A stretch of DNA of 64,000 bases from Alphaproteobacteria bacterium (lineage in GTDB: Bacteria; Pseudomonadota; Alphaproteobacteria; Rs-D84), in assembly GCA_017463185.1 (NCBI GenBank), contig JAFTPS010000003.1, positions 27,113 to 91,112 on the forward strand, read 5' to 3'. How positions within the stretch are numbered: position 1 is the stretch's first letter; each line of letters begins with the position of its first letter. The notes below the pieces were generated by a model. That model was not told the DNA's origin, did no database searches, and saw nothing but the letters and a program-made list of their open reading frames with translations. Of this stretch, positions 37,324 through 56,260 are shown in pieces. Position numbers and translations under genes: made by a program.

Positions 37324-37352
37324 AAATCCCACCATTTGGTGGGATTTTTTCT
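37324..37352. terminator. bidirectional intrinsic terminator
   Basis: aaaaatcccaccatttggtgggatttttt. Confidence 0.65.
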
Positions 37353-38604: not shown

Positions 38605-38742
38605 AATGTTTTCTTCCTTTTGATATTGGACACTGTTCAATGTACGACCATACGATATAAAAAGCAAGGGGTGGGAAAATAAAAAAGTTTTGTTCTGGAC
38701 AAGTGTGTCAAATTATTATAAAATCACGCCCATATAAGTTCC

Positions 38743-39165: not shown

Positions 39166-39167
39166 TG

Positions 39168-39185
39168 CACTCGCGTCTGCGACGC
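39168..39185. repeat. second copy of palindromic direct repeat flanking GIY-YIG gene
   Basis: cactcgcgtctgcgacgc; followed by terminator aaacgcccaaacgggcgttttt. Confidence 0.55.
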
Positions 39186-39220
39186 AGCGCAAATACGAAA
39201 CGCCCAAACGGGCGTTTTTG

Positions 39221-39754: not shown

Positions 39755-40069
39755 AGCATATTTCCCTTTTTATACATAATAAAACCGCCATACGGAATCT
39801 GGCGGTCGGGGAGTTGCTAAATCAGTGTATTAGTGATTCTGTCGCTTTCGGGTTGTCCCTGTTGTATAGCAAACAGCTCCCCGACTTATACAAGTCAGGG
39901 ATAAATCACGATACAAAACCATCGGAATGACATCAGATAACGATGCCATTAACAATTTTGCACCGAATACACTGGGCCTAGCACAGCCCCGAACCCATAT
40001 CCCTATGGATTCAATTCATAGTTTATCACTAAATTTCAGAAATGTAAATTGAATATATTGTTTGATGTT

Positions 40070-41155: not shown

Positions 41156-41426
41156 GTTCGCCACCGTCCCGTACAACATCAAATATAGACTGATAATTTT
41201 TACGCACAAACAGGTTGTCAAAATCGCCTTCGTATCCCAGCGCCTGCGATAACTTAATCAGTGCAGTTAATGATATTTCCCCGGTTCGTTCAAATCGCTT
41301 GATTGAGCCCAAAGATACCCCAGAACGCTGGACCAATGTCATTTGCGACATCTTGGCGGTGCGTCGAACGGTACGGAACCTGTCTTTTATTCTGGTTTTG
41401 ATAGATAATATATTATCTATATTCAT
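41145..41426 (-). CDS. hipB: HTH XRE-family antitoxin HipB
   Basis: 93-aa Cro/C1-type HTH (..MSQMTLVQRSGVSLGSIKRFERTGE..) immediately upstream of and overlapping hipA. Confidence 0.65.
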   Translation of the reverse strand: MNIDNILSIKTRIKDRFRTVRRTAKMSQMTLVQRSGVSLGSIKRFERTGEISLTALIKLSQALGYEGDFDNLFVRKNYQSIFDVVRDGGEHAK

Positions 41427-41638
41427 TGTTTGTGCCTGTGTTTAGATATTATATTGTCTATAATTATAATGCAGCGTTGTAGATTTTGCAATAAAAAATC
41501 ATACAAAATCGTTTACAAACGACGGAAAACACGATAAATTATAAAAGCGCCAAGCAAAGTGTCAGGCAAACTGATAAAAACTGCTGAAAATCGGGTTGAA
41601 ATGGGCAGAAAAATGCCAAAAATGGCGTAAACACAGTC

Positions 41639-41654
41639 CCCTTCGCCCGCACCA
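41639..41654 (+). repeat. 16-nt duplicate of tRNA-Gly 3' end (cccttcgcccgcacca): candidate attR of tRNA-Gly islet
   Basis: Identical to 38801-38816; 2.8 kb downstream of the tRNA. Confidence 0.5.
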
Positions 41655-41751
41655 AAAATAGAGCCGACCATTGTGGTCGGATTTATTTTTGGGTTGCCTC
41701 AACAAAAATATCCCCGAACGAGTCGCGCCAGCAGCGGGACGGTTTGGATTT

Positions 41752-43092: not shown

Positions 43093-43095
43093 TGA

Positions 43096-44808
43096 TTATC
43101 TGGTTCCACCAAAGCCCAATTCAACATTTATATTACCGTCACCGCCATTGTCATTAGGACGCCAATTTCCATTATCGTTGACCCATTCCCAGTCAGAAGA
43201 ATTATCCAGGCTATAACGCATTGTTGCGGTGGCTTCAGTTGGGGTGTTATTATCCCCATAATATCCAGCAGTAAATGCCATAGTTTCAGAATCCTTGCTG
43301 ATTAGGTTGCCTTGGTTATCAAATTCAGGTACAACATTATTGTCGCTGGTCAACCCAGATGCTGATGTCACAAGTGTAAAATCATATGTTCGCAAGCTGC
43401 CATCGCCATCAACATCAAATGTTTTTGTTACACGGTCATTATCGTTTGTTTTACCATCACCATTTCTGTCACCAAAAACAACCAATTTATTTGTACCATC
43501 TGCGGATTGCACAGCTTGAATTTTATACCAATTGTCTGAAAAATCTGCGGTTAGTGTTTGGGTGCCTGTATTATCAAATACCAATGTAGCATTGGTATCG
43601 GTCATCATATCGTCTGTCAACGGCACATCAATACCATTTCCATTATATGCCAAACCATCGCGATATCTGACATCTGCAAATGCGGTTCCTGTAAATGTTA
43701 TACTGCCATCATTTGCCAATGTTTTCATATCTTCATTTGATATTTTCTTGGACGCATATCCACCAGCAAAAGGAGTAATCATAACACCCCAAGCATCCAA
43801 AAATTCTCGCACTTCCTGTTTACCTGCATCGTTCAATCCTGTTGTGGCAAACGTTGCGTTTTTAAAATCATTTTTCATGATACCAAAATCGGCATATTTC
43901 AGTCCCAGTTGTTTGCCATAACTGATATATTCGTCATACAATTCAAGATTGATGCTGCCACTAGCGTCGGTTATATTTTCTGTGGATACAATATTTGCAT
44001 CTGGATCTTCGTCGTTCATTTGACTCAAAGGAATCATACTTGCTTGGACAAAGATATTTGTATTATCCCGACGCACAATCACACCATCTGTATCATCATC
44101 AACTGGATATTCAGGCGAACCATCGTCATCATATCTCGTAAAACTGACAGAACCATCATCGTTATGAACCAGATAATCTGGATATTCATACGATACAATT
44201 TTACCATTTTTATCAACATTAAACTTGATTCTTTGCATTTGTGATGTGTATAAGTCCACACCATCCAATGTCATAATTTCTGTTCTTTGTTGCAGGTCTG
44301 CCAACGTTTTTTCAAAATTACTTTCCTTGATACGGCGTGCGGTCTCGGTTGCGTCACCACCGACAAAGCAATACATATCATCCATCAGCTTCAATGCAGA
44401 TTTAATTTTGTTTTTATCCAATTTTGATTTGTTGAACATTTCAACAATATCGCTTTCAGATGTTGTGTCTTCAACCAGCCAAGCCGCCAAATCAATCAAT
44501 TCACGCGCTGTGTCATATTCTGTATCCCCTGTTGGGGTTTTAGGCACAAACGCCCCGCGGGTTGTCGCAACACGTGATAAATTTACATCAGCCGCATAAT
44601 CACCCAATTTATGCGCAACATAACGTGCAACCTGATATTCACTGTTTGAAACCATACCTGTAATTTCTGAATTACTGGTCGCAACCGTATCAACAAATGA
44701 AGAGTTTGGAACAACTGGTTTTTCAAGCATCGCTGGGGCAGAACCACCACCTGAACCGCCACAAGCCGCCAATGCCAAAACAGAGGTTAAAAATGCAATT
44801 TTTTTCAT
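43096..44808 (-). CDS. surface lipoprotein (SLP-type; lipobox LAACGGSGGGS)
   Basis: MKKIAFLTSVLALAACGGSGGGSAP: lipobox followed by flexible Gly/Ser linker typical of Slam-dependent surface lipoproteins; 570 aa. Confidence 0.55.
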   Translation of the reverse strand: MKKIAFLTSVLALAACGGSGGGSAPAMLEKPVVPNSSFVDTVATSNSEITGMVSNSEYQVARYVAHKLGDYAADVNLSRVATTRGAFVPKTPTGDTEYDTARELIDLAAWLVEDTTSESDIVEMFNKSKLDKNKIKSALKLMDDMYCFVGGDATETARRIKESNFEKTLADLQQRTEIMTLDGVDLYTSQMQRIKFNVDKNGKIVSYEYPDYLVHNDDGSVSFTRYDDDGSPEYPVDDDTDGVIVRRDNTNIFVQASMIPLSQMNDEDPDANIVSTENITDASGSINLELYDEYISYGKQLGLKYADFGIMKNDFKNATFATTGLNDAGKQEVREFLDAWGVMITPFAGGYASKKISNEDMKTLANDGSITFTGTAFADVRYRDGLAYNGNGIDVPLTDDMMTDTNATLVFDNTGTQTLTADFSDNWYKIQAVQSADGTNKLVVFGDRNGDGKTNDNDRVTKTFDVDGDGSLRTYDFTLVTSASGLTSDNNVVPEFDNQGNLISKDSETMAFTAGYYGDNNTPTEATATMRYSLDNSSDWEWVNDNGNWRPNDNGGDGNINVELGFGGTR

Positions 44809-44940
44809 TTAATATCCTTTCTGGAATATGTTGTGAATGTTTTCACAAAGCAATAATTAAATCAACCGCTTTTGCGCATCTTACCAATGCACCAGGTCCA
44901 TAGAGAAAGAAAAAAACAAAAAACTTTACAAACAGGAAAT

Positions 44941-45003
44941 CCAAACTGCAACACCAACATAAAAATAAAACGCCCGCATGGGGCGTTTGATTTTTGTGGC
45001 GGA
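44941..45003. repeat. 63-nt direct repeat (copy A) = tRNA-Ser 3'-end (8 nt) + 3' flank incl. terminator hairpin; candidate attL
   Basis: caaactgcaacaccaacataaaaataaaacgcccgcatggggcgtttgatttttgtggcggag; 60/63 identical to 56115-56177 which ends inside tRNA-Ser. Confidence 0.6.
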
Positions 45004-45132
45004 GTATGATTTTATTACGAACCCTCGCATACAAATTCCAATTTTACAGGGAATTTACAGGGATTTGTCCACTATAAAACTCTTGTATTTTTCATATAAA
45101 ATCCTATATGCAATAATAAAGGATAAATAGAC

Positions 45133-45810
45133 ATGAATATTGATGACATTATAAACGCATTTTATAAACTGCATGATTATAAGGGAAAATTCAGATTTAA
45201 TACCCCAGAATATATCAGTTTCCATAGGAATCTCACGGATTTTATCTATGAAAACCACCTGGAAGATACTATGTATTGGAAGAAAATATCCGACAATTTA
45301 TTGTATACAGCAACGGAATATATGACACTGCGAGAAGCTGGCATTATATCAAAAAATCTAGAACTTTTACGACGCCATATTTTACAGACTCGAGACGAAC
45401 CTTTCTGGAAGTATATCCATCCTTTGTTATCGCCAATAACACAACCAAAATTCCAAGCACAACAATATGCCGATTGTGTAGAATCTGCATTCAAGGAAAT
45501 TAACTCTAGGTTAAAAGAGTTATATCTTAAATTGCGAAATACGGAACTAGACGGCAGCACCCTAATGAATCATGTATTTTCGCCTAATAACCCGGTGTTA
45601 ACTTTTGAGAACATAGAAACACAGACTGGCAAAGATGTCCAAATTGGATATATGAACATATTTGCTGGCGCAATGACAGGCATAAGAAACCCCAAGGCAC
45701 ACGGAAATCAGATTATATCGAAGGACATGGCTATAAAGCGATTGATTTTTGCTAGTTTATTAATGGACAAAATAGATGAAGCCATATCGTATTCCAACAT
45801 AGAAGAATGA
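45133..45810 (+). CDS. hypothetical protein, possibly TIGR02391/Hypoth_Ymh family (abortive-infection-like)
   Basis: C-terminal ..FAGAMTGIRNPKAHGNQ.. resembles conserved RNxxAHG block of Ymh family; assignment from memory, low certainty. Confidence 0.35.
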   Translation: MNIDDIINAFYKLHDYKGKFRFNTPEYISFHRNLTDFIYENHLEDTMYWKKISDNLLYTATEYMTLREAGIISKNLELLRRHILQTRDEPFWKYIHPLLSPITQPKFQAQQYADCVESAFKEINSRLKELYLKLRNTELDGSTLMNHVFSPNNPVLTFENIETQTGKDVQIGYMNIFAGAMTGIRNPKAHGNQIISKDMAIKRLIFASLLMDKIDEAISYSNIEE

Positions 45811-45908
45811 TTATATCGCAATAAAGCCGATGTGCTATCTGGGAAAAATATTGACTTTCTGGGAATTATCTGGTAACATCTGGGAAAAATTATAAAAAGA
45901 GTATAAAG

Positions 45909-46967
45909 ATGCCAAATAACCGCGATATTATGATTACACCAGAAATACTGAACGGTATTGCCGAGATTGATGCGTTTAATGGTGCGTGGACCGGTGGGGC
46001 GGTAAAACTGTCCGCGGATGAACTGCGTGTTATGCGCAGGGTCGCAACGATTGAATCTGTTGGCTCATCCAATCGCATAGAAGGCAACCGTATGACAGAT
46101 GCAGAGATTGAAGTGCTATTCGCTAATATCAATCGTCAGTCATTTGCCACACGTGATGAGCAGGAAGTTGCAGGCTATTCAGATGTAATCAATACCATAT
46201 TTGAAAACTATGCGTCTATACCGCTTAGCGAGAATTATATTAAGCAGTTGCATAAAATATTATTGAATTACTCTGACAAGGACACCCGCCATCGTGGGGA
46301 ATATAAAAAAGACAGTAATCGTGTTGCCGCTTTTGATGCAAACGGTAATGAAATCGGTTCTATATTCGAAACCGCTATACCATTTGATACTCCACGTCTG
46401 ATGAGCGAAACAGTAAAATGGGTCAATGACGCATTGGCAGACAAGTTCTTTCACCCTATTATTGCTATTGGGGTATTTGTGATACACTTTCTGTCCATCC
46501 ACCCATTTACCGATGGAAACGGGCGTCTGTCACGCGCATTGACTGTTATGCTGATGCTGAAAAGTGGATACACATATATGCCATATGCATCTATGGAATC
46601 TATTATAGAAGCAACCAAGGACGCATACTATCGTGCATTACGCGGCACACAAAAAAACATCTGGGGCGACAAAATCAATTATGAACCTTGGCTGACTTTC
46701 TTTGTTCGTGCCTTGGTTGCACAAAAGCGCCAATTGGAAGATAAAATTGCGAAGGCACGTGGCACAAGTGCCGCAAAATTATCATCTACTCAGAATGAGA
46801 TTCTGAAACTGTTTTATAAAGCACCAGAATTGACCATGTCACAGATTATATCTGCGATGGATAAAAATCCAGAAACCATTCGCAAGGCGGTACAGGCACT
46901 GGTAAAACGAGGACACATATCAAAGCAAGGCACGACCCGTGGCGTGTTTTACACTTTGCATAAATAA
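45909..46967 (+). CDS. fic: Fic/Doc family protein
   Basis: Canonical Fic motif HPFTDGNGRLSRAL; C-terminal winged-helix-like region. Confidence 0.8.
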   Translation: MPNNRDIMITPEILNGIAEIDAFNGAWTGGAVKLSADELRVMRRVATIESVGSSNRIEGNRMTDAEIEVLFANINRQSFATRDEQEVAGYSDVINTIFENYASIPLSENYIKQLHKILLNYSDKDTRHRGEYKKDSNRVAAFDANGNEIGSIFETAIPFDTPRLMSETVKWVNDALADKFFHPIIAIGVFVIHFLSIHPFTDGNGRLSRALTVMLMLKSGYTYMPYASMESIIEATKDAYYRALRGTQKNIWGDKINYEPWLTFFVRALVAQKRQLEDKIAKARGTSAAKLSSTQNEILKLFYKAPELTMSQIISAMDKNPETIRKAVQALVKRGHISKQGTTRGVFYTLHK

Positions 46968-47055
46968 CCCATAGCCCGCTGCAAAAACAGCGGGGATAAT
47001 TTCTATATTCTTTGCGGCCTACGCGGAATGGATTAATCATCTATGAAGAACGTAT

Positions 47056-47883
47056 ACCATAGCTCGCATTTCAAATCGTCTTTGATATAATTATGGCGTC
47101 AACGATTCGCCACAATCGCGCGTTATAGGTTGCTTCTCAAATCGTCTTTGATATAATTACAGTTGTTGAATATATGCCCGGCAAGACGTTATAGGTTGCT
47201 TCTCAAATCGTCTTTGATATAATACATGTGTTTATACATGGTTGCCTCTGCGCGTTATAGGTTGCTTCTCAAATCGTCTTTGATATAATGCAGATAATTA
47301 AAAATAGCAGTTGCAATCAGTTATAGGTTGCTTCTCAAATCGTCTTTGATATAATAAACGTTGACAATGATTTAGGAGTTGGTGCGTTATAGGTTGCTTC
47401 TCAAATCGTCTTTGATATAATTGTCTTGCGACCCAATGCATACGCACCAGCGTTATAGGTTGCTTCTCAAATCGTCTTTGATATAATACAACTTGAATTG
47501 CCGTTACACAGTACATAGTTATAGGTTGCTTCTCAAATCGTCTTTGATATAATAAACGTTGAAAATGATTTAGGAGTTGGGGCGTTATAGGTTGCTTCTC
47601 AAATCGTCTTTGATATAATGCCCGGTTCTTGTCAACCCTAACGCATTCGGTTATAGGTTGCTTCTCAAATCGTCTTTGATATAATGACCATATATCTTTG
47701 ATGCCGAATTGGAAAGTTATAGGTTGCTTCTCAAATCGTCTTTGATATAATAAGGGGCGTGAAGACTATGGAAGATTTGTTGTTATAGGTTGCTTCTCAA
47801 ATCGTCTTTGATATAATCGTGATGTATGTAAATCGCAACGCGGGTGCGTTATAGGTTGCTTCTCAAATCGTCTTTGATATAAT
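47056..47883 (+). CRISPR. CRISPR array, 13 repeats (first degenerate) of 36 nt GTTATAGGTTGCTTCTCAAATCGTCTTTGATATAAT, 30-nt spacers
   Basis: Perfect 66-nt periodicity from 47122; repeats at 47122, 47188, 47254, 47320, 47386, 47452, 47518, 47584, 47650, 47716, 47782, 47848; degenerate repeat 47056-47091 keeps 3' 21 nt; each repeat ends in extended -10 box TGATATAAT. Confidence 0.95.
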
Positions 47884-47987
47884 AGACACACAAAAAAACC
47901 GCTGATATTCTGCGGTTTTTTGTGTCTATACCGTCAAAAAAATACGTCTGTTTTTGATAAATTCTATTGATTCGTTTTATTTTTTTC

Positions 47988-48317
47988 TTAAAACATCAAC
48001 ATCTGTTGCGTGCCGATTTTTTCGGCAACTGGTGGTGAACCAACCAAGAAAAACATATCTGCAAATTGCTTTTCTGTGACAGTTAACACACGAACCGACC
48101 CTGATGGTGGTGCCAAGTGACGCAAACGCTGAACATGCTTGTCAACTGCAGCAGCCCCTTTGACCATGCGAGAATATATAGAGAACTGCATCATATAATA
48201 CCCGTCGTTTAACAAATCGTTTCTGAACCGTGTGGCTGCATGGCGTTCACGCCGTGTACCAACCGGCAAATCAAAAAATACTAGTATTCGCATAAACTTT
48301 TCCCCTGATTGATACAT
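47988..48317 (-). CDS. cas2: CRISPR-associated endoribonuclease Cas2
   Basis: ..MRILVFFDLPVGTRRERHAATRFRNDLLNDGYYMMQFSIYSR.. Cas2 fold; alternative start MRIL at 48293. Confidence 0.8.
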   Translation of the reverse strand: MYQSGEKFMRILVFFDLPVGTRRERHAATRFRNDLLNDGYYMMQFSIYSRMVKGAAAVDKHVQRLRHLAPPSGSVRVLTVTEKQFADMFFLVGSPPVAEKIGTQQMLMF

Positions 48318-48318
48318 A

Positions 48319-49233
48319 TTAGTTATCCGTATTTACAATTTTAGGCGCAGATGTAATACAAGGTAATTTTAAGGCTTGTAAATCCTTGGCCTTGAAAGAT
48401 GACGCAATTGATTCTGAATACAACGGTATCGCATTCATAATAGAATGCCGCATACCATTAAACGTGCAACTGTGCAACAAGACAGATACTAATTGTCGCT
48501 TGATATCCGGCGTCAATTTGTCTGCGTCGCCAAAATCCATATTAAACACAATATAATCCAGAAAAGGACGCCACGGTTCAATCAAATCATCAGCCAGACA
48601 AAAATTATCCAGCTTATTGCAATGATGTATACCATAAAACGGCAACATACCCGCGCCAACAATACTGCGCGCGACACATCCACGCAAAATCGCATAACCA
48701 TAATCCAGCGCATGATTGCGAATATCATTGTCATTACTGCGATTGAAATTTTCCCATAATGCCGACCAATAAATACGCGCAGCAACCCCTTCTAGGTTTT
48801 GAGCGTCGCCTGATTTAACATTATCTGCCAAAATATCTAGCTTTTTATACACAGCATTGTCGCACAGTCGTAATACCGCAGATTGATTGCGAATTTTTTG
48901 CACAACGATATTTTGCCACATACGTTTGCGCAGTGGCTGCGACGTTTCTATCTGAGCCCAGGCAGTTTCTGTGTAGCGTGAATTTTTATGAAACGGAAAG
49001 AACGCGCCATTCGGCATATGCGATGCATCACAGGAAAATACAACAGCGCCGTTTTCCGCCAACGACGACAATAATGTGGACGTTATCTGAATTTGCGGTG
49101 ACTCTAAAATGACGACAGAAATATCTTCTAGTGGGACGTTTTGTGTTTCACCACTGTCTGCCGTCCAGTTTAATTGTTTATTCCTGACACAAATCCGCGA
49201 CGGTTTGGACAGGGTAAGAATGCGCCAAGACAT
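48319..49233 (-). CDS. cas1: CRISPR-associated endonuclease Cas1 (type II)
   Basis: 304 aa, Cas1 conserved residues, between cas9 and cas2. Confidence 0.85.
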   Translation of the reverse strand: MSWRILTLSKPSRICVRNKQLNWTADSGETQNVPLEDISVVILESPQIQITSTLLSSLAENGAVVFSCDASHMPNGAFFPFHKNSRYTETAWAQIETSQPLRKRMWQNIVVQKIRNQSAVLRLCDNAVYKKLDILADNVKSGDAQNLEGVAARIYWSALWENFNRSNDNDIRNHALDYGYAILRGCVARSIVGAGMLPFYGIHHCNKLDNFCLADDLIEPWRPFLDYIVFNMDFGDADKLTPDIKRQLVSVLLHSCTFNGMRHSIMNAIPLYSESIASSFKAKDLQALKLPCITSAPKIVNTDN

Positions 49234-49286
49234 TTGAATGCCCCGTATTTGTATCCTTTCCCCCAGTCCAAATGTTATATAGTGCG

Positions 49287-52208
49287 TTATTTTTTATTTA
49301 CAACTGGCATACGCTTTTCCGGCAATTTTACATCGCGTATCGCCCCCAACACAGTGACAAAGCACTTTTTTATTTCGGTGCACATTCCGACTGATTTTTT
49401 AACAACTTGGATATTTTTATTATCTTGGCGATATAATATAAAATTTGTTCCATGGTCCATTTGGGTTATGTATCCTTCATACTCTTCGTCTGTACGGGTT
49501 TTGATTTTTATATAATCATCTTTGTGCAGGGTGCAGACGAATTCTGCATCGGGGACAATGAATTTTGTATCATCCCCAGACACAGTATCTGATACAAATA
49601 TCGGCACACAGGTGTATTTGCCTGTGTTCGTCCGCCAAATATCAAAACGAAACATATCGCCACGAACAGCGTTGCCAAAACGTATTTTTATACTGCCCTT
49701 GGCCCCCATTGTATTTTTCCCTTTCTTGGTGCGATACGATCTGGGATTTATATAAATCGTTTCGTTATGCGCAGATCCTGTGGCGTTGCAACGTGGTGGA
49801 CGCGAAACTGTAATCATATCCAACGCAGCCAGCACATCATTACGGAAAGTAGGCCATGGCGACTGTATGGCAGTTTTTAATTTTTTATACCATGCTTCGC
49901 CATTTTCGCCTATTAACCTGCCCTTGTTCTCAAACTTGCCAGACAAGGTTGACAGATAACGAACCATTTCTTGGGTAGCGCAAGCAATTACTATGGCATC
50001 TTGGGCATGATGTTTATCAGACTCTTCGCGGTTCTTGCTTAGCCCCCATTGATGACGAAGATAGTCCGTCAACGCCCCCGTACGAACCAGCACACGCATT
50101 TTGCCGTCATTTGTTGTTGACCATTTTATGCCTTGGGTCAAGTACTGGGCTGCAAAACGTGCAATCGTTGCATTGTCGTTCGCATTGCGGGCAATAAAGT
50201 CATTTTGTTCATCGCTGCTTTGTGGCAAATCTGTGTTTGTCAGTTTTCTGAACTTGGCCATATTATGATAACCGCGTGCACGCAGAGTCATTTCATAAAA
50301 CTGATTAGCATCCAAATATTCAGACGGGGTTTTGCTGCCTTTGGCCTGATTACAGGCGCGACAGACCAATACTTTGTTAGATTGCGAATTGTCCAATGAA
50401 CGTGAGTACGGCAAGATATGATCAATTTCATACGCATCCCAATTATTCGCATCAATAGATGCGCCACAATATGGACATTGACAATGCTGCTCCATATACA
50501 GTTTGTATTTTTTGGCATTTTTACCATGTTCTTGAAGCGCCGCTTCGTTCGCGGCACGATTTCGTTCATTTTCTTTTTGTAATAGTGCCAATTCTTTGGG
50601 GGACTTTTTTAATTCACGCCCTATCTCCAAATGAATTCTGTCAGGTGTGCCATAGCGATACACCATCGCATTATAAACACGACGTAATTGTGACAATGTA
50701 CGACGTGCCACAGGCGATGTTAAGCGTTTGCCCAGAACCGACCAATCTATCTGGCGCAACATGCCGTCTGCAACATCATCAGACATATCAATAAAACTAT
50801 CGCCTGTGCTGCGATGGTCCCAATCATTTATTTTGCACGCATCGGCATACGTTTTGCCCGCACGCATTTCTGGGATAAGTTTGTTTAATGCAGACAACGA
50901 TAAATTCAAAAATTCAGACGTACTTAGTTGTGAAATCGCATCTGCGTGTTCAGGCAAGAATTCAGACACTCCTTTTTTTATGCGTCCTGGCGTTTTCTCG
51001 GTCGCCAAAACTTCATATATTTTATCCATCAAAGCGATGTTATTGGTATACGGCAACAAGGTATGATAGCCACTAAACTTGCTAAACACGACTTTTTCAA
51101 CATCTGCAATTTTTGGTTCAACCCAAATTTTTTGTTCTTTGTCGTATTTACGTGAATAATTCAGTGCCTTGAACCGATACTCGTCATCAAATTGTAATAA
51201 TTTACGGACATCCGAATATTTTAAACCTGTTTTCTTTTTGTATAATTCTGCCAAAACTAATTCTATTTGGTCAGGCGTCAAACCGTTTTGATTGCACGTT
51301 GATAACGCCACAAACAACTGGGCAGATGGCGCCCCCTTGGGCGCAACAGGTTCACCGGTAAATTTGCACGCCCCACGCATAGATGCAACAGAACGATATA
51401 ATGGCGAATCTGATTCATTGAACTTGCGCTGACGCGAGGCAATCGGATACCACGCATCAAATACCGCAGTAAAATCATTGCCAAACGTTTTTTGTGCCGC
51501 CAATATCATTCGTGCTTCACGGAAAATTTCAGAACGAGGAATGGAATTTGTATAGGTGGATTCTTCACTTGTTTTTGCCTCGCCCTTTGCGCTGATTTTT
51601 GTGATGGTCTTTTTTTGGTTGCGCATTTGAGCCGGATTTTTTGCATACAAAACCTGACATAATGTTTTGTTGTCGCCCGATTGGCGCAACAAAGCCAGAT
51701 TATCCGCAATACAACCAATCGCCTTTAACTCTTCTTTGGCATCTGGGCTGTCTGTATCCGCTGTTTTAGCCACATCAACAGGATATGTAATATCGTCATA
51801 CCCACGATGCTTGGCCAAATGGTATAAAACACGACCTGTTTCACGTGGTGTTAATTTCCGCTGAAACGCATCAACCGCACGCAAACGCCAGATGTTTATA
51901 TCTGTGTCACGGTTTAGATAAAAATTATTGTGACCGTTTTTCTTGGGCTCTGGAATGTCTATTAAATTTGCAGATCGCAACAATGCACGAATTTGACGCA
52001 TACGCAACGCACGATGACGTAGGCGACGCCGCATACCACGGGCAACACGTCTGTCAGCGGCATTTGTCGCAGCAGTAAAGCAGCGTACGCCACACCCCAA
52101 GATTTTACTGCCCACAAAACCTTGATTTTCGTCTACTGTGTCTGACATTTCTATTGTAGCCCACCCAATACTGGCGACCCCTAAATCAAAACCGAATATT
52201 CTAGCCAT
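49287..52208 (-). CDS. cas9: Cas9, compact type II-C (973 aa)
   Basis: RuvC-I MARIFGFDLGVASIGWATIE; HNH ..YEIDHILPYSRSLDNSQSNKVLVCRACNQAKGS..; arginine-rich bridge helix after RuvC-I. Confidence 0.95.
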   Translation of the reverse strand: MARIFGFDLGVASIGWATIEMSDTVDENQGFVGSKILGCGVRCFTAATNAADRRVARGMRRRLRHRALRMRQIRALLRSANLIDIPEPKKNGHNNFYLNRDTDINIWRLRAVDAFQRKLTPRETGRVLYHLAKHRGYDDITYPVDVAKTADTDSPDAKEELKAIGCIADNLALLRQSGDNKTLCQVLYAKNPAQMRNQKKTITKISAKGEAKTSEESTYTNSIPRSEIFREARMILAAQKTFGNDFTAVFDAWYPIASRQRKFNESDSPLYRSVASMRGACKFTGEPVAPKGAPSAQLFVALSTCNQNGLTPDQIELVLAELYKKKTGLKYSDVRKLLQFDDEYRFKALNYSRKYDKEQKIWVEPKIADVEKVVFSKFSGYHTLLPYTNNIALMDKIYEVLATEKTPGRIKKGVSEFLPEHADAISQLSTSEFLNLSLSALNKLIPEMRAGKTYADACKINDWDHRSTGDSFIDMSDDVADGMLRQIDWSVLGKRLTSPVARRTLSQLRRVYNAMVYRYGTPDRIHLEIGRELKKSPKELALLQKENERNRAANEAALQEHGKNAKKYKLYMEQHCQCPYCGASIDANNWDAYEIDHILPYSRSLDNSQSNKVLVCRACNQAKGSKTPSEYLDANQFYEMTLRARGYHNMAKFRKLTNTDLPQSSDEQNDFIARNANDNATIARFAAQYLTQGIKWSTTNDGKMRVLVRTGALTDYLRHQWGLSKNREESDKHHAQDAIVIACATQEMVRYLSTLSGKFENKGRLIGENGEAWYKKLKTAIQSPWPTFRNDVLAALDMITVSRPPRCNATGSAHNETIYINPRSYRTKKGKNTMGAKGSIKIRFGNAVRGDMFRFDIWRTNTGKYTCVPIFVSDTVSGDDTKFIVPDAEFVCTLHKDDYIKIKTRTDEEYEGYITQMDHGTNFILYRQDNKNIQVVKKSVGMCTEIKKCFVTVLGAIRDVKLPEKRMPVVNKK

Positions 52209-52313
52209 TTATGCCCCCTTGGGTTATGTTATACATTATATAGTGCAAATGTGAATAAATGCAAATTTTATCCGAGACTTGATTTTTATGATTAGTTGGT
52301 TATAATACGGGTA

Positions 52314-52425
52314 TAGAAATCTTTATTCAACGGACGATTTGAGAAGCAACCGTTTATATAATAAAGAATATTTTCTGTGGAGTAACAATTTAAGTATCTC
52401 CGGGGGCTTCGGCCCCGTTTTTATT
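52314..52425 (+). ncRNA. tracrRNA (predicted)
   Basis: Anti-repeat GACGATTTGAGAAGCAACC (52333-52351) is exact reverse complement of repeat nt 7-25; sigma70-like promoter ttgatt-16-tataat at 52279-52306; ends in hairpin ccgggggcttcggccccg + ttttt; divergent from cas9. Confidence 0.6.
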
Positions 52426-52441
52426 AAAAAGGCATAAAAAT

Positions 52442-52906
52442 ATGGCGAAGCTATTTCTGATATGTGGATTTTTGGGTGCGGGCAAAACGACTGTTTCAAA
52501 ACAACTGGCGAAACAATATAACGCAGAATATATGAACGTTGATAGCCATGTGACGCAACTGTTTGCGCGGGACGAATATGAACACAATTGGGAAAAATGT
52601 TTTAGCATAGCAGAAGATGATTTGTGGCAAAAAATTAAACTGTGTGCCCAGTCAGACACTGATGTTGTTTTCGATGTCGGATTTTGGACACGTAAATCGC
52701 GCGACATGGCTAGCGCACGAGCCAGACAAATCGGGATGACGCCAATTGTATATTATGTTTATGCCCCAGACGAAATATTAAAGAAACGTATCGCGCAACG
52801 TTCTGGCCGAATTGCAGAAAATAACATCAAAAACTTTGACACAATCAAACAAATGTTTGAAAACCCCCAAGTAGATGAAGATTTTGTGCAAGTTGATAAT
52901 TTTTAA
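52442..52906 (+). CDS. P-loop kinase (AAA_33/zeta-toxin-like NTPase fold)
   Basis: Walker A LICGFLGAGKTTVSKQLA; 154 aa. Confidence 0.5.
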   Translation: MAKLFLICGFLGAGKTTVSKQLAKQYNAEYMNVDSHVTQLFARDEYEHNWEKCFSIAEDDLWQKIKLCAQSDTDVVFDVGFWTRKSRDMASARARQIGMTPIVYYVYAPDEILKKRIAQRSGRIAENNIKNFDTIKQMFENPQVDEDFVQVDNF

Positions 52907-53106
52907 TACCACACGACGCTTGACCGTTTTTTTGCGGAAATTATTGGCAAGAATCTCTGCGGGATAACTTATCTATTTCTTGAAACAAAACTTTTTGCGG
53001 GCTTACTGTCCATTGTTTTATCTAAGTCAAATTTTGACGGGTACAATGATATTTTATGATTGCATTTAGAAAATTCCATATCAGAATAATAAAAAAGGAC
53101 GAATTA

Positions 53107-53613
53107 TGAGAAAGACACCCCTGCTTGATGACATAACAAATGTTTATTTAGAAAAATTGAAAAAGCTTTATAATGCACCCCCGTTGCTTTTTATACGTTT
53201 ATTGAAACACTAATACAAAAACCACTTGTTGGGCTGACCTTTTCAAACAAGACATAATGTGTAAAATTACCAGAAAGAAAAAATATATCCCGCAATAATT
53301 TGGCATCCGTACTACGAGGTCTTTATCCTGAGCAATCAGGAAACATTGCTAAATCAAGAAACCTTAAAAAAATACATTGATTTAATTACAGATGAGGTCA
53401 TTTTCCACAAATCATCCTTGTTGCCGCAAACAAATATAATATGAAAACCATCTTATCCCAATTGACTGATATTTTGCCGGCAAAAACAGACAGCATGAAC
53501 TATAATCTATCTGTTATTACGGATGCGGAATTTAATCAAGCGTACGCCGCCGCAAAAGGCGCCGCCATTAAAGAGGCATTAACAAAAATCAGCCGTCTAA
53601 AAAAACAAGTTTA
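53107..53613 (+). pseudogene. decayed gene (multiple frameshifts/stops)
   Basis: Four short ORF fragments in different frames (MRKTPLLDDITNVYLEKLKKLYNAPPLL..., ...NNLASVLRGLYPEQ..., ...MKTILSQLTDILPAKTDSMNYNLSVITDAEF...) span a 700-bp stretch with no intact gene. Confidence 0.25.
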
Positions 53614-54303
53614 ATCTTTGTACTTGGGTGGGATTTCAAGATACAGACACTGAAATTTCTCACCAGACACATTAGAAACCATCAAAAAGTCTCGCCATTC
53701 AAAGTCATATGTGTTTTTGATATCTAAGTCAGGACGAGTTTTTTGTATTTCTGCAATTCTTTGTTCGGAGCAGCGATTTGTCGACTTCCATTTTTTCTCG
53801 CCTCGCTCATGCGTACCGCCCTCTATAGAAAAATTTGAGTAAATTGTGTTTTCATGTGCTTTCTTATAATTCGGTGCATTTGTTAAAAAAATACATACGC
53901 CCGCTTCGCACTCGTTCTTCTCTATCAAACATTCGGTTCTATTAATATCTGCCCAAAAGTCATACGCCCCAAAATCGTAAGCACTATGATCTTTTAATAG
54001 CGCACAAGCAAGCTTGCTATCATCATCAATACTTGGCGCATGTTTTATTGATTGCGTTTTGTATTTTAATTCAATTATATATTTTTTACCGTTATCTTTT
54101 ATTAAAATATCCGCATAAATATGATCACCTTTGGTCGTCTTAACTGTATCAGGTTTTTTGATCGGATATTCCAATCTAACATTACCAGGGAACTTTTCTT
54201 CCAGCACCATTGCAAATGAATGTTGAAAATCTGCCTCGGACACAAAAACACGTTTTTCTAAATCGTTAAATGCTTCTTTTATCTTTTTTAATACATCACT
54301 CAT
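53611..54303 (-). CDS. PD-(D/E)xK nuclease-like protein
   Basis: ..YADILIKDNGKKYIIELKYK.. fits D-x(n)-ExK catalytic core. Confidence 0.4.
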   Translation of the reverse strand: MSDVLKKIKEAFNDLEKRVFVSEADFQHSFAMVLEEKFPGNVRLEYPIKKPDTVKTTKGDHIYADILIKDNGKKYIIELKYKTQSIKHAPSIDDDSKLACALLKDHSAYDFGAYDFWADINRTECLIEKNECEAGVCIFLTNAPNYKKAHENTIYSNFSIEGGTHERGEKKWKSTNRCSEQRIAEIQKTRPDLDIKNTYDFEWRDFLMVSNVSGEKFQCLYLEIPPKYKD

Positions 54304-54312
54304 ACCACACCC

Positions 54313-54573
54313 TTATTTCAACAAATCAGCACATTCATGCAGTTTTATCGCATGCTTATAACTGATTTCAAACTTACGCTGAACATCTGTTATGTTTGGT
54401 TCTTTTTCAAGAATATAGCTTATTGCATTTTTTTGCAAGTCTATGTAATCGGCATACTTGGTTGCCAGTCCATCTACTAATTTGGTCACACCGTCTTCTG
54501 AAATATATGCTGGATGAATACGTTCTGGCTGTTGCGATCGTATACTATATACCGCATCACCGTACGACCACAA
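54313..54573 (-). CDS. small hypothetical protein (partner of nuclease-like gene)
   Basis: 86-aa ORF 9 nt upstream of nuclease-like gene. Confidence 0.3.
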   Translation of the reverse strand: MWSYGDAVYSIRSQQPERIHPAYISEDGVTKLVDGLATKYADYIDLQKNAISYILEKEPNITDVQRKFEISYKHAIKLHECADLLK

Positions 54574-55137
54574 AGTTAAAGCATTGGCATCCGCCCCAAG
54601 AATTTTTTTTCAACTCATTTTTTGGCATATCAAATACAAATCGTGTATCAAAGCATGATGCGTGCAGACGGTTTTCGTGAGATGTCCTGGTATCTGTTCC
54701 AGTGGACCGGCAAAATACGCCCAATTGCACCGAAGGAATTGGTCAGTACCTATAACAGCATTTTGAAAGACATCATCCTGAACAGCCAGTCTGGCAAGTA
54801 AGTCATTTTTGGTCTGGGTCGATTTTTCTAATTTAATTTTGCTGAAATACCTGTTAAAGTTGCTTTGTAAGCAAAGCCCCCAATTCAGAACGAGAAAAGG
54901 GAGGTCTGTTTTCGTAGCACCTAGGGTTGAGTAAAACTCCCTTTTGCATCTTTGCTTGCGTTCCTGCGAGAGGGCGAATTCTAATAATACCAGTCATCGC
55001 AGACGGTCACCAAATCTGCTGTCACGAAAGTTATATAACGACAAAGGCATACGTTTTGTTAACCAACACGCATGCTCCAAAGATAAGGTCGGCCCATATT
55101 ACTATGCGACACGGGGGGCTATCTGCCAGCTGCACAG

Positions 55138-55359
55138 GTGGACGAAATAACCATGTCTATTGTAGCCGAATTTCTGGGCAGCGATATGAGCGCCCTGCGC
55201 CATATTTATAAACACCTGTCGCTGGCATATCTGAACCCAGAAGTCGTAAATCATATATTGAGTAATCAATGTCATATATCTGTTCGCGATATGTTGGACA
55301 AGGCATCACGCAGCAATGACTTTGCTGAACGGAAAAGGTTATTTACCGCCTATTTATAA
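55138..55359 (+). pseudogene. possible tyrosine-recombinase C-terminal remnant
   Basis: ..ALRHIYKHLSLAYLNPEVVNHILSNQCHISV.. loosely resembles integrase box II (LRH..A..L...G......LGH) but lacks catalytic Tyr; preceded by ~550 bp without ORFs. Confidence 0.2.
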
Positions 55360-55407
55360 TTGCATTTTATTACCTCGCTTTTTATAATCATATAAAGTGA
55401 GGTTGAT

Positions 55408-55824
55408 ATGAAAATAGCATTTTTGATTTTTCCTTTATTTCTTGTTGCCTGTGCGGAACAATCTTTTATACAGAAGATAAGTGCACCATCAGAAACAATC
55501 CACAATGAAAAGTGTGCAGAGATTCAAAAATATAGAATTTTTCAAGTTATTGATAATGGTTCATTGGCCATGGCTTGCGAAAACACATATGGCATTGAAT
55601 CGTGTATGGGCTTAACTGTGTTTATTCCAAAAGAAAAAGGTAAAATATATTATGACGACATGATTGTCGGACCATCAACTGATAAGTGCATAACCTATGC
55701 TGATGTTTATCGCTATACAACAAATCGTGGTGATACTAAAACAGTTCCAAAAATCAAATTTGAAAACAAAGACATTCCAAACCCCGCTTTTGTAGAATGG
55801 GAAAAAACACAATCTAATCAATAA
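55408..55824 (+). CDS. lipoprotein (lipobox LVAC)
   Basis: MKIAFLIFPLFLVACAEQ signal/lipobox; RBS gaggt. Confidence 0.5.
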   Translation: MKIAFLIFPLFLVACAEQSFIQKISAPSETIHNEKCAEIQKYRIFQVIDNGSLAMACENTYGIESCMGLTVFIPKEKGKIYYDDMIVGPSTDKCITYADVYRYTTNRGDTKTVPKIKFENKDIPNPAFVEWEKTQSNQ

Positions 55825-55982
55825 AATTGCCACGGTGGTTTTGGCCATTGTATGTAAGTGGTGGGGATATTCGGTTATTTGATAACTTCGTTGTACATAC
55901 TGGTAACCTTGCGGGGGAAAAGTGGCGGAAGTGTGGCTAAAAACAAAGCCCCGACAGATATTGTCGGGTTTTTGATTATTTC

Positions 55983-55996
55983 TGGCGGAGACGAAG
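55983..55996. repeat. 14-nt partial copy of tRNA-Ser 3' end (tggcggagacgaag)
   Basis: Identical to 56170-56183; third occurrence of tggcggag with 45001 and the tRNA itself. Confidence 0.4.
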
Positions 55997-56114
55997 TATT
56001 CCCTCGCCCCGCGGATGGCGGGGCTGCGGGGCATTCCTGACGGTTTGACGATGTTTCACTTGTCAAACCTACTCATTGTCGAACCCGGCAATCATAGATT
56101 GCGAACGTTTCGTC

Positions 56115-56177
56115 CACACTGCAACATCAACACAAAAATAAAACGCCCGCATGGGGCGTTTGATTTTTGTGGCGGAG
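56115..56177. repeat. 63-nt direct repeat (copy B) overlapping tRNA-Ser 3' end; candidate attR
   Basis: cacactgcaacatcaacacaaaaataaaacgcccgcatggggcgtttgatttttgtggcggag. Confidence 0.6.
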
Positions 56178-56260
56178 ACGAAGGGATTCGAACCCTTGAT
56201 ACCCTTGCGAGTATACTACATTTCCAATGTAGCGCACTAGACCAACTATGCGACGTCTCC
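56170..56260 (-). tRNA. tRNA-Ser (anticodon GGA)
   Basis: Reverse complement GGAGACG...CTACA-TTGGAAA-TGTAG...long variable arm TATACTCGCAAGGGTATC...AAGGG-TTCGAAT-CCCTT-CGTCTCC-G-CCA (91 nt). Confidence 0.8.

What the first reader, a model, noticed from the sequence alone, without database searches (positions are those of the whole stretch)
44941..56260. Complete type II-C CRISPR-Cas9 system rides on a putative tRNA-Ser-integrated ~11-kb island bounded by 63-bp direct repeats
A 63-nt sequence occurs twice (44941-45003 and 56115-56177; 60/63 identical). The right copy ends with the last 8 nt of tRNA-Ser(GGA), so the pair is an attL/attR-like duplication of the tRNA 3' end plus flank. A third partial copy of the tRNA end (tggcggagacgaag) lies at 55983. 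The region between the repeats has no housekeeping genes. It contains a Ymh-like protein, Fic, cas9-cas1-cas2 plus array plus tracrRNA, a P-loop kinase, a PD-(D/E)xK-like nuclease with a small partner, a 700-bp decayed gene and a weak integrase-like remnant near the tRNA. This suggests the whole CRISPR-Cas locus was acquired, and possibly mobilised, as part of a defence island.
Basis: partly seen in the sequence, partly recalled or inferred. Interest (0 to 1): 0.75.

Follow-up and report, generated by a model that had tools for sequence, protein, structure and literature searches.

The report
Decayed serine-recombinase island carrying CRISPR-Cas9
A complete small Cas9 immune system in an uncultured gut alphaproteobacterium lies inside the worn-out remains of mobile elements that were inserted one after another at the last bases of a serine tRNA gene, most likely by a large serine recombinase; this is an ordinary kind of genomic island, but it shows clearly how a Cas9 cassette gets moved around.

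Summary
The repeat is real: 65 nt, 62/65 identical, at 44940-45004 and 56113-56177. The right copy ends in the last 8 nt of tRNA-Ser(GGA). The type II-C system between the copies is complete (cas9, cas1, cas2, 12-repeat array, tracrRNA).

The repeat is probably not one att duplication. In about 78 related Candidatus Enterousia-clade species, the 3' end of tRNA-Ser is an integration hot spot. The sequence shared at every junction is only TGGCGGAG. A conserved element arm lies on one side (window 45005-45066) and a terminator "flank" on the other.

Eighteen relatives carry a ~530-aa large serine recombinase (LSR) beside the tRNA. A viral-catalogue contig shows LSR, flank, core and arm contiguous. 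The window's "decayed gene" (54956-55296) is a remnant of that LSR.

I read the region as two units. The first is a 10,978-nt decayed LSR element (45005-55982) whose cargo is Cas9, SoFic and a Ymh protein. The second is a 173-nt cargo-less mini-unit (55997-56169) that supplies the second flank copy.

All sampled same-species contigs that reach far enough carry the island. A sister species shows presence or absence of the homologous Cas9 cassette. Verdict: reader partly right; new member of a known kind; moderate interest.

The parts
44940..44996 (.). Left copy of the 57-nt 'A-flank': a terminator hairpin plus T-rich tract. This is the sequence that follows tRNA-Ser in many relatives, here displaced to the far side of the island.
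   Evidence: The same sequence abuts the tRNA in L009, L014, L021, L044 and L032.
44997..45004 (.). Core copy TGGCGGAG, the complement of the last 8 nt of tRNA-Ser. It marks the far-end junction of the main element.
45005..45066 (.). Far-end arm of the element family: TATGATTTTATTACGAACCC...CATACAAATTCC plus a tandem TTTACAGGGA repeat at 45043-45064.
   Evidence: Conserved next to TGGCGGAG, with different flanks, in L015, L019, L029, L018, L093 (two copies), L042, L078, L115, L116, L119, L120 and L122. Also lies downstream of the LSR genes in IMG/VR contig loci L100 and L102.
45133..45810 (+). Ymh-family (HEPN-like) protein, 225 aa.
   Evidence: PF09509 1e-24; PADLOC PD-Lambda-3_B 1e-10. 93% aa identical in L029 and L120.
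45909..46967 (+). Fic protein with a C-terminal winged-helix domain, SoFic-like, 352 aa.
   Evidence: PF02661; PADLOC SoFic 2e-49. 95% aa identical in L029; a remnant is present in L045.
47055..47883 (+). CRISPR array: 12 repeats of GTTATAGGTTGCTTCTCAAATCGTCTTTGATATAAT with 30-nt spacers, plus a degenerate terminal repeat at 47055-47090. Each repeat ends in TGATATAAT, an extended -10-like motif.
47988..48317 (-). cas2
   Evidence: PF09827.
48319..49233 (-). cas1 (type II, NMENI class)
   Evidence: PF01867; TIGR03639 280 bits.
49287..52208 (-). cas9, 973 aa
   Evidence: HNH and RuvC domains; TIGR01865 549 bits.
52325..52425 (+). tracrRNA (ends approximate): anti-repeat 52333-52351 followed by a terminator hairpin at 52400-52422.
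   Evidence: 19-nt perfect complement to the repeat; hairpin sequence.
52442..52906 (+). P-loop kinase-like protein, 154 aa.
   Evidence: AAA_33 5e-18; weak PADLOC VakA match 2e-9.
53611..54303 (-). 230-aa protein of unknown function. In L094 it is the partner of an FtsK/SpoIIIE-like ATPase.
   Evidence: No family hit. 62% aa identical in L094 next to a 337-aa FtsK-like gene.
54313..54573 (-). 86-aa ORF, a C-terminal remnant of the FtsK/SpoIIIE-like ATPase.
   Evidence: Residues 1-37 match the end of the L094 337-aa gene at 68%; 78% nt identity over window 54496-54657.
54658..54955 (.). Non-coding remnants homologous to the WYL-gene region of L094.
   Evidence: 78-83% nt identity to L094 4231-4643.
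54956..55296 (+). Pseudogene remnant of the large serine recombinase. Only residues ~269-351 (frameshifted) and 486-521 of the 530-aa protein survive. The catalytic N-terminal domain is gone and about 400 nt are deleted internally.
   Evidence: tblastn with the L005 LSR. 84-87% nt identity to LSR genes of 9 species. The LSR carries PF00239 and PF07508 and matches phrog_95 integrase at 1e-91.
55408..55824 (+). 138-aa ORF of unknown function between the LSR remnant and the element's near end.
   Evidence: 96% aa identical at the same position in L028; no family hit.
55822..55982 (.). 'B-flank', the near end of the LSR element. It contains conserved motifs and a terminator hairpin at 55948-55969.
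   Evidence: The same sequence abuts tRNA-Ser in L005, L017, L023, L028, L045, L060, L006, L015 and L019.
55983..55996 (.). Displaced copy of the last 14 nt of tRNA-Ser. Positions 55983-55990 form the core that closes the main element.
55997..56112 (.). Inner part of mini-unit M: an 83-nt hairpin-rich arm (55997-56079) plus a 33-nt unit with hairpin GCAATC/GATTGC (56080-56112).
   Evidence: Homologues in L009, L018, L025, L027, L029, L033, L035 and L044. Predicted three-way junction with 6 compensatory pairs out of 35.
56113..56169 (.). Right copy of the A-flank, the near end of mini-unit M. It currently serves as the terminator of tRNA-Ser.
56170..56260 (-). tRNA-Ser(GGA), intact. Its last 8 nt are the recombination core.

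Best explanation
The region is a stack of at least two integrated units at the 3' end of tRNA-Ser(GGA), in a gut alphaproteobacterium of the Candidatus Enterousia clade.

Unit E (45005-55982, 10,978 nt) is a decayed member of a family of elements that use a large serine recombinase (LSR). Such a unit reads: far-end arm, cargo, LSR, small ORF, near-end flank. It recombines with the last 8 nt or fewer of tRNA-Ser (core TGGCGGAG / CTCCGCCA). Integration puts the element's own terminator flank behind the tRNA. It pushes the previous flank, plus the 8-nt core, to the far side.

E's cargo is Ymh, a SoFic-like Fic, the complete type II-C CRISPR-Cas9 cassette (tracrRNA to array, 46995-52425), a kinase, and a remnant of an FtsK-like/p230 pair. 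Its recombinase is now a fragment, so E cannot move by itself.

Unit M (55997-56169, 173 nt) has only a near-end flank and a short arm, with no cargo. It lies between the tRNA and E and is bounded by a 14-nt tRNA-end repeat.

The 65-nt repeat exists because M's near end and the older flank displaced by E are two copies of the same conserved flank type.

Shown:
- the junction anatomy;
- conservation of arm and core against varying flanks;
- the LSR remnant;
- recurrence of the LSR beside tRNA-Ser genes;
- arm, core and flank lying contiguous next to LSR genes;
- horizontal spread of the LSR;
- presence or absence of the Cas9 cassette within a sister species.

Inferred:
- that the LSR catalyses these junctions;
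- the order of the insertion events;
- that stacking happens because each element's near end recreates a usable target;
- that recombinase-less units are moved in trans or together with a neighbour.

The CRISPR-Cas system itself presumably works as ordinary Cas9 immunity.
For: 1. Hot spot. tRNA-Ser(GGA)-rpoZ-mtaB is syntenic in about 78 species, while the other side of the tRNA is hypervariable.

2. Recombinase.
- 18 loci carry a ~530-aa protein with Resolvase and Recombinase domains; 17 of them lie 250-2,000 nt from the tRNA.
- One further locus has a different LSR abutting the tRNA.
- No tyrosine integrase recurs among 119 neighbouring gene clusters.
- The LSR matches phrog_95 integrase at 1e-91.

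3. Window 54956-55296 is a fragment of that LSR. It has the same orientation and the same order (LSR, small ORF, B-flank) as intact elements.

4. Junctions. The arm next to TGGCGGAG is conserved in the window, L015, L019, L029, L018, L093 (two copies), L042, L078 and five metagenome contigs. The sequence on the other side of the core differs between them. In L015 and L019 the other end is the B-flank abutting the tRNA.

5. Both halves belong to one site. In IMG/VR contig 3300029904_000303, two LSR genes are each followed about 0.9 kb downstream by a B-flank-like sequence, then TGGCGGAG, then the arm with the TTTACAGGG repeats. In L078 the arm lies 400 nt from an LSR C-terminal remnant.

6. Target specificity. 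An LSR 92% identical to that of L005 sits with the same flank and core at tRNA-Ser(CGA) in another genome.

7. Mobility. LSRs are 90-95% aa identical between species whose MtaB is 65-77% identical. Ymh-Fic and p138 show the same pattern.

8. The Cas9 cassette as movable cargo.
- In L093 (86% nt identical across tracrRNA to array) the cassette plus an Hsp70-like gene is bracketed by two arm-core-flank junctions and contains no recombinase.
- The conspecific genome L010 (98-99% nt identical in shared genes) lacks the cassette.
- L045 has the Fic-to-LSR scaffold with a ParB-methylase where the window has CRISPR-Cas.

9. M-like and other cargo-less mini-units occupy the same position in at least 12 species.
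Against: - No intact unit with both ends and a live LSR was seen integrated at a tRNA. Intact units exceed the 10 kb that could be fetched.
- The IMG/VR junctions could be tandem-unit junctions rather than a true attP. Either reading gives the same sequence logic.
- Canonical LSRs do not recombine attP with attL, so tandem stacking needs a property that is only inferred here.
- The tandem TTTACAGGGA motifs in the arm look like arm-type sites of tyrosine integrases or binding sites of a directionality factor.
- In L093 and L018 the A-type flank is the near end paired with this arm.
- L094 has cas9 (70% aa), p230 (62%) and MtaB (70%) at similar divergence from the window, with CRISPR-Cas also near tRNA-Ser and no att remnants. 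That is compatible with long residence at this locus.
- All sequences are metagenome assemblies.
Confidence: 0.6

Rival explanations
1. One reading: one 11.1-kb island (45005-56112) was integrated in a single event. Its attachment site shares about 65 bp with the target (the tRNA end plus the downstream terminator), so the two copies are attL and attR. The internal tRNA-end copy and the LSR fragment are older material carried inside the island.
For: The repeat is long and 95% identical. In L093 the Cas9 unit has an A-type flank as its near end and the same arm as its far end. L018 has a 330-nt unit with an A-flank near end and this arm at its far end. L042 has an ~80-nt repeat of flank plus core around a 2.7-kb segment.
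Against: The same arm abuts four unrelated flanks elsewhere, sharing only 8 nt. The segment contains a complete second junction (B-flank, 14-nt tRNA end, arm) that is typical of stacked units. The only recurrent recombinase is an LSR, a class that does not need or create long repeats. The left copy lacks the 33-nt unit that follows the A-flank in near ends.
Confidence: 0.2
2. The CRISPR-Cas block is an old chromosomal resident next to tRNA-Ser. It was inherited vertically and surrounded later by element debris. The repeat is a local duplication or gene conversion of a terminator and has nothing to do with acquisition of CRISPR-Cas.
For: L094 has the FtsK-like gene, p230 and cas9-cas1-cas2 near tRNA-Ser. 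Its divergence from the window (62-92% aa) is similar to that of MtaB (70%) and RpoZ (82%). The island is present in all sampled same-species contigs that reach far enough. The G+C shift is modest.
Against: 78 other species of the clade, several of them closer by MtaB, have no cas9 within 10 kb of the tRNA. The conspecific pair L093/L010 differs by the cassette. The cassette lies between an element arm and an LSR remnant whose ends are the two halves of one site.
Confidence: 0.12
3. The junctions are made by a recombinase other than the LSR. Candidates are a tyrosine integrase that uses the TTTACAGGGA repeats as arm-type sites, or a host Xer-type enzyme. In this reading the LSR elements are just one of several families using the same hot spot.
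For: The tandem 11-nt repeats lie 40-60 nt from the core. Displaced tRNA fragments of 6-8, 12, 14 and 19 nt indicate more than one crossover position or family. Units in L015, L019 and L093 have no recombinase.
Against: No recurrent tyrosine integrase was found next to the site. The LSR is adjacent to the flank-core-arm junction in the IMG/VR contig and in L078. A 92%-identical LSR sits at a second tRNA-Ser gene with the same core.
Confidence: 0.08

Closest known systems
tRNA-gene genomic islands as catalogued by Islander/TIGER (PMC4383910)
   Same: An intact tRNA lies at one end and a displaced 3' fragment at the other. The element restores the gene. Several islands can lie in tandem. Composition is deviant and the cargo is accessory.
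   Different: Those islands are described as integrated by tyrosine integrases, usually with a longer segment of identity inside the tRNA. Here the associated recombinase is a large serine recombinase, the shared core is only the last 8 nt or fewer, and the integrase of the window's copy is destroyed.
SCCmec and other staphylococcal cassette chromosome elements (CcrAB/CcrC large serine recombinases); comparison from my own knowledge
   Same: An LSR inserts at the extreme 3' end of a conserved gene. Composite arrays of several cassettes form, including cassettes without a recombinase. Short repeated integration-site sequences mark each junction. The cargo is adaptive. The LSR here shows domain-level matches to the CcrB, CcrC and XisF models.
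   Different: The NCBIfam matches are far below the family cut-offs (121 bits against 900). The target is a tRNA rather than rlmH. The host is an alphaproteobacterium. Intact relatives carry terminase genes and so look like phages or satellites.
Cis-mobilizable elements and accretion-mobilization of streptococcal ICEs (review PMC5704250)
   Same: Units flanked by att sites but lacking recombination genes sit in tandem with autonomous elements that use the same site. This offers a route for moving them as composites.
   Different: Those cases involve tyrosine integrases and conjugation. Nothing here has been shown to excise.
Type II-C CRISPR-Cas9 loci of the Neisseria meningitidis / Campylobacter jejuni kind (my own knowledge)
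   Same: The locus has cas9-cas1-cas2 only, with a compact 973-aa Cas9, 36-nt repeats and 30-nt spacers. The tracrRNA lies upstream of cas9, and each repeat ends in an extended -10-like motif.
   Different: The Cas9 is at most 46% identical to any named homologue. It lies inside a mobile-element relic.
Defence islands on integrative elements (e.g. pipolins, PMC11551731; E. coli hot spots, PMC10121019)
   Same: Several defence genes are clustered on an integrative platform and exchanged between elements.
   Different: The platform and host differ, and the cargo includes a full Cas9 system.

Membership tests
tRNA-integrated genomic island | Intact tRNA gene at one boundary | tested here: met
   tRNA-Ser(GGA) 56170-56260; ARAGORN, and Rfam at 59 bits.
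tRNA-integrated genomic island | Displaced copy of the tRNA 3' end at the other boundary | tested here: met
   8 nt at 44997-45004 and 14 nt at 55983-55996. The same junction type occurs in 12 or more other loci.
tRNA-integrated genomic island | Functional integrase gene inside the island | tested here: not met
   Only about 120 of 530 codons of an LSR survive, with a frameshift and no catalytic domain. No other recombinase domain was found in the ORFs.
tRNA-integrated genomic island | Empty site in close relatives | tested here: inconclusive
   All 10 and 13 same-species contigs carry the island where the flank is long enough. An empty-junction pattern was not found in JGI metagenomes. Other species have different content at the site. 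L014 has only ~300 nt there.
tRNA-integrated genomic island | Deviant base composition | tested here: met
   39.6% against 44.5% G+C, with lower GC3 in most cargo genes. The adjacent 39000-44939 stretch is also low, at 40.4%.
Large-serine-recombinase integrative element | LSR with Resolvase and Recombinase domains encoded next to the attachment site | tested here: met
   Met in relatives. In the window only a remnant is left, at the expected place and in the expected orientation.
Large-serine-recombinase integrative element | Short common core between element site and target, with no long duplication required | tested here: met
   Only TGGCGG(A/C/T)(G/C) is shared across junctions with different flanks.
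Large-serine-recombinase integrative element | Recombination of these sites by the LSR | not testable with these tools
   This needs an integration assay. The evidence here is association only.
Type II-C CRISPR-Cas | cas9, cas1 and cas2 without csn2 or cas4 | tested here: met
   No further cas gene lies between 46995 and 52441.
Type II-C CRISPR-Cas | CRISPR array and a tracrRNA with an anti-repeat | tested here: met
   12 repeats. 19-nt perfect anti-repeat at 52333-52351 followed by a terminator.
Type II-C CRISPR-Cas | Interference and adaptation activity | not testable with these tools
   Arrays are nearly identical across samples apart from a 3-unit deletion in L086. One spacer pair has no match in IMG/VR.
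Cis-mobilizable / accreted tandem elements | att-flanked unit lacking a recombinase, in tandem with other units at the same site | tested here: met
   L093 Cas9 unit between two arm-core-flank junctions. Window units M and E.
Cis-mobilizable / accreted tandem elements | Excision or transfer as a composite | not testable with these tools
   No circular junction data are available.

The most novel reading that the evidence does not exclude
tRNA-Ser genes of these reduced-genome gut alphaproteobacteria host a modular shuttle system. Phage- or satellite-like elements supply a large serine recombinase. Each inserted unit recreates a usable target beside the tRNA, so units stack. Recombinase-less cassettes are then exchanged between species in trans or as composites. 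One such cassette is a complete tracrRNA-cas9-cas1-cas2-array module. This would be a portable Cas9 moved by a serine recombinase.
Probability: 0.3. Interest if true: 0.6.

Novelty: new member of a known kind. Interest (0 to 1): 0.42.

Why it matters
The region gives a resolved example of how a whole Cas9 system sits on exchangeable, att-bounded units in an uncultured, genome-reduced gut lineage. It points to a widespread LSR family (thousands of homologues) with a defined, very short target at the CCA end of tRNA-Ser. If confirmed, that enzyme-and-site pair could be of practical interest as an integrase. The stacking behaviour would be unusual for serine recombinases. As a finding about CRISPR biology it is incremental, because defence islands and CRISPR-Cas on mobile elements are well known.

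Tried and rejected
- Exact-protein look-up of the 131-aa rpoZ ORF found nothing, because the called gene uses a later start codon (123 aa).
- I first treated the whole 30-56 kb stretch as one 26-kb island, because relatives have orthologues of window genes at 27-30 kb next to the tRNA. I rejected this: 30146-38667 holds DnaK, PFK, GDH and tRNA-Gly, so that side is simply rearranged.
- Rfam found no known RNA family in 54.8-56.3 kb other than the tRNA, at gathering or at permissive thresholds.
- I looked for a tyrosine integrase next to the site by scanning 119 cluster representatives. None recurs, though a single occurrence cannot be excluded because only the top families are listed.
- A single-protein scan of IMG/VR with the LSR gave one truncated hit. 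The profile scan was needed.
- I looked for the far-end arm within 10 kb of intact LSR genes in GTDB loci. It was absent except in L078, so intact units are longer than the fetched flanks.
- I tested whether the Fic terminator at 46994 is a hidden unit boundary. L045 and L029 show no core there, so I rejected this.
- Spacer 10 shares 18 nt with rpoZ of relatives, but no locus matches 21 or more of its 30 nt. I treat it as chance.
- The empty-site junction pattern gave no hit in JGI metagenomes. The species may simply be absent from that collection.

Full report
**Observation.** The window holds a 65-nt direct repeat at 44940-45004 and 56113-56177, 62/65 identical. A 38-nt exact core of it occurs only twice in 64 kb and never in 100 shuffles. 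tRNA-Ser(GGA) lies at 56170-56260 on the minus strand. The right copy is therefore the last 8 nt of the tRNA plus the 57-nt terminator region behind it. A third copy of the tRNA end, 14 nt long, lies at 55983-55996 behind a different terminator hairpin.

Between the repeats lie:
- Ymh and Fic;
- a 12-repeat CRISPR array;
- cas2, cas1 and a 973-aa cas9;
- a tracrRNA with a 19-nt perfect anti-repeat at 52333-52351;
- a P-loop kinase;
- 230-aa, 86-aa and 138-aa ORFs.

Independent assemblies of the same species show the same arrangement.

**Organism and neighbourhood.** The flanking mtaB-like gene finds 139 relatives, all metagenome-assembled gut Alphaproteobacteria, many named Candidatus Enterousia. 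The best is 77% aa identical. The window also has a permuted tmRNA. In about 78 species the order tRNA-Ser(GGA), rpoZ, mtaB is conserved, while the DNA on the other side of the tRNA is different almost everywhere. No cas9 lies within 10 kb of the tRNA in any of those species. The repeat is also not a dispersed terminator: in the window and in the sampled loci of relatives it occurs only at tRNA-Ser-linked junctions.

**The recombinase.** Clustering the genes next to the tRNA gave one dominant family. It is present in 18 loci, is about 530 aa long, and in all but one locus lies 250-2,000 nt from the tRNA. It carries Resolvase and Recombinase domains, so it is a large serine recombinase (LSR). 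It matches phage integrase family phrog_95 at 1e-91. A second, unrelated LSR abuts the tRNA in L016. No tyrosine integrase recurs among 119 neighbouring gene clusters.

Window 54956-55296 matches residues 269-351 and 486-521 of this LSR. It has a frameshift, an internal ~400-nt deletion and no N-terminal catalytic domain. The ORFs nearest the tRNA gave no family match.

**Junction anatomy.** Two kinds of sequence follow tRNA-Ser in this clade:
- The A-flank is the sequence of the 65-nt repeat.
- The B-flank corresponds to window 55822-55982. It abuts the tRNA in L005, L017, L023, L028, L045 and others, and lies just downstream of the LSR and a small ORF.

On the far side, the window's left repeat copy is followed by an arm: TATGATTTTATTACGAACCC...CATACAAATTCC plus two TTTACAGGGA motifs (45005-45066). 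The same arm, directly after TGGCGGAG, occurs in L015, L019, L029, L018, L093 (twice), L042, L078 and five metagenome contigs. The sequence before TGGCGGAG is unrelated among several of them. This is the signature of site-specific recombination with a core of 8 nt or fewer.

In L015 and L019 the other end of the unit is the B-flank at the tRNA. In an IMG/VR contig, two LSR genes 14.7 kb apart are each followed by a B-flank-like sequence, then TGGCGGAG, then the arm. Flank and arm are therefore the two halves of one site beside the LSR, whether that contig is read as a true attP or as a tandem junction. The unit between those two junctions carries ParB-methylase, DUF5681, a large terminase, DUF2924 and the LSR, so it is phage- or satellite-like. 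In L078 the arm lies 400 nt from an LSR C-terminal remnant. An LSR 92% identical to that of L005 sits with the same flank and core at tRNA-Ser(CGA) in another genome. The target is therefore the shared 3' end of serine tRNAs, not a chromosomal neighbourhood.

**Reading of the window.** Going away from the tRNA, the order is:
1. A-flank and a 116-nt hairpin-rich segment, together unit M (55997-56169).
2. A 14-nt tRNA end.
3. B-flank, p138 and the LSR remnant.
4. Remnants of a WYL gene and of an FtsK-like ATPase (the 86-aa ORF), then p230 and the kinase.
5. tracrRNA, cas9, cas1, cas2 and the array.
6. Fic, Ymh and the arm.
7. The 8-nt core, a second A-flank, and host genes.

From B-flank to arm (45005-55982) this is the architecture of one LSR unit, here called E. 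M consists only of a near-end flank and a short arm. M-like or other cargo-less mini-units sit at the same place in at least 12 species, some next to intact LSR elements. On this reading the 65-nt repeat is the coincidence of two copies of the same flank type: one carried by M, and one displaced earlier by E.

In L093 and L018 an A-type flank is the near end paired with this arm. I give the stacked reading about 0.6 and the single-island reading about 0.2.

**Is the Cas9 cassette cargo?** The evidence points that way:
- Ymh-Fic is 91% nt identical in L029 and 93-96% aa identical in L120. p138 is 96% aa identical in L028. LSRs are 90-95% aa identical between species whose MtaB is 65-77% identical. 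These modules move between species.
- L045 keeps the Fic-to-LSR scaffold but has a ParB-methylase where the window has 8 kb including CRISPR-Cas.
- The closest cas9 (87% aa; 86% nt from tracrRNA to array) is in L093. There the cassette plus an Hsp70-like gene lies between two arm-core-flank junctions and has no recombinase.
- L093 is conspecific with GTDB genome L010 (98-99% nt in shared genes), which lacks the cassette. In L093 the cassette lies between two copies of an 18-nt hairpin-containing sequence that is single in L010.
- A 65%-identical cas9 lies in another defence island that also has an LSR.

Against recent transfer into the window's lineage:
- L094 has the FtsK-like gene, p230 and cas9-cas1-cas2 near tRNA-Ser, at a divergence like that of housekeeping genes.
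- Every sampled same-species contig that reaches far enough carries the island.
- An empty-site pattern was not found in JGI metagenomes, which may simply lack the species.

**Function and state.** The cargo is defensive: SoFic-like Fic, a Ymh/HEPN-like protein and CRISPR-Cas9. G+C is 39.6% against 44.5% for the rest of the window. The element has no working recombinase, so any movement would need an LSR supplied in trans or co-excision with a neighbour. This resembles cis-mobilizable elements (PMC5704250) or recombinase-less SCC cassettes (my own knowledge). Arrays differ between samples only by one 3-unit deletion. That gives no sign of ongoing spacer uptake.

**Comparison and novelty.** This is a tRNA-linked genomic island in the sense of Islander (PMC4383910), but it is associated with a serine rather than a tyrosine recombinase, and it has a very short core at the CCA end. 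It resembles SCC-type composite arrays in logic, while the LSR is only distantly related to Ccr proteins. The CRISPR-Cas part is a normal II-C locus. I rate it a new member of a known kind, with moderate interest. The more novel reading is a serine-recombinase shuttle system in which a complete Cas9 cassette is one exchangeable unit. That reading is plausible but unproven.

Noticed in passing
window 55983-56131 (+): The segment between the displaced 14-nt tRNA end and the tRNA's terminator folds, in 7 species, into a conserved three-way junction. 6 of 35 pairs change on both sides and keep pairing. Invariant G-U pairs favour the plus strand. No Rfam family matches. Its first 14 nt follow the polymorphisms of each species' own tRNA. 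It could be a small RNA, a protein-binding palindrome set, or just element-end sequence.
   Followed up: partly
L093 184-9667: Between tRNA-Ser and the first arm-core junction lies a 9.4-kb unit. It carries a leucyl-tRNA synthetase, an aminotransferase, a radical-SAM enzyme, an ATP-grasp enzyme and a glutamine amidotransferase. The conspecific genome L010 lacks it. It may be a biosynthetic island with a self-resistance LeuRS copy.
   Followed up: no
L093 9730-9760 and 15880-15900, compared with L010 9181-9200: The Cas9 cassette in L093 lies between two copies of an ~18-nt hairpin-containing sequence (TTCRCAATCTRTGATT). That sequence is single in the conspecific genome without the cassette. This suggests either insertion with duplication or deletion between repeats.
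   Followed up: partly
window 39000-44939: The stretch left of the island also has low G+C (40.4%) and looks accessory. It holds a HipA kinase with a small upstream ORF, a Slam-family surface-lipoprotein assembly modifier, a 570-aa glycine-rich lipoprotein with no family match, and a GIY-YIG ORF next to tRNA-Gly(CCC). No att-like junction was found there.
   Followed up: partly
window 47356-47385 and 47554-47583: Spacers 5 and 8 are near-duplicates, differing at three positions. One sample (L086) has lost the three units between them, probably by recombination. The shared part has no match in IMG/VR.
   Followed up: partly
L100 and L102 (IMG/VR contig 3300029904_000303): Two LSR units lie in tandem. 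The 14.8-kb unit carries a large terminase, DUF5681, ParB-methylase and DUF2924. That is too small for a complete tailed phage, so it may be a satellite. The next unit starts with a reverse transcriptase.
   Followed up: partly
L123 12885-12974: The same LSR family (92% aa to L005) is integrated at tRNA-Ser(CGA), with the same flank and core. The family therefore uses at least two serine tRNA genes.
   Followed up: partly
window 17027-26326 (+): A 3,099-aa ORF whose orthologues lie next to tRNA-Ser in many relatives. It was not examined further.
   Followed up: no
window 47686-47715: Spacer 10 shares an exact 18-nt stretch with the rpoZ gene of several related species, but no locus matches 21 or more of its 30 nt. 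Probably chance.
   Followed up: yes
L004 3860-3990: The mini-segment next to tRNA-Ser in this species contains an inverted copy of the tRNA-Ser 3' end that faces the real tRNA across a shared terminator. L032, L044, L069 and L010 have another mini-segment type, with a 19-nt tRNA end and a perfect 13-bp hairpin. Several element families appear to use the site.
   Followed up: no
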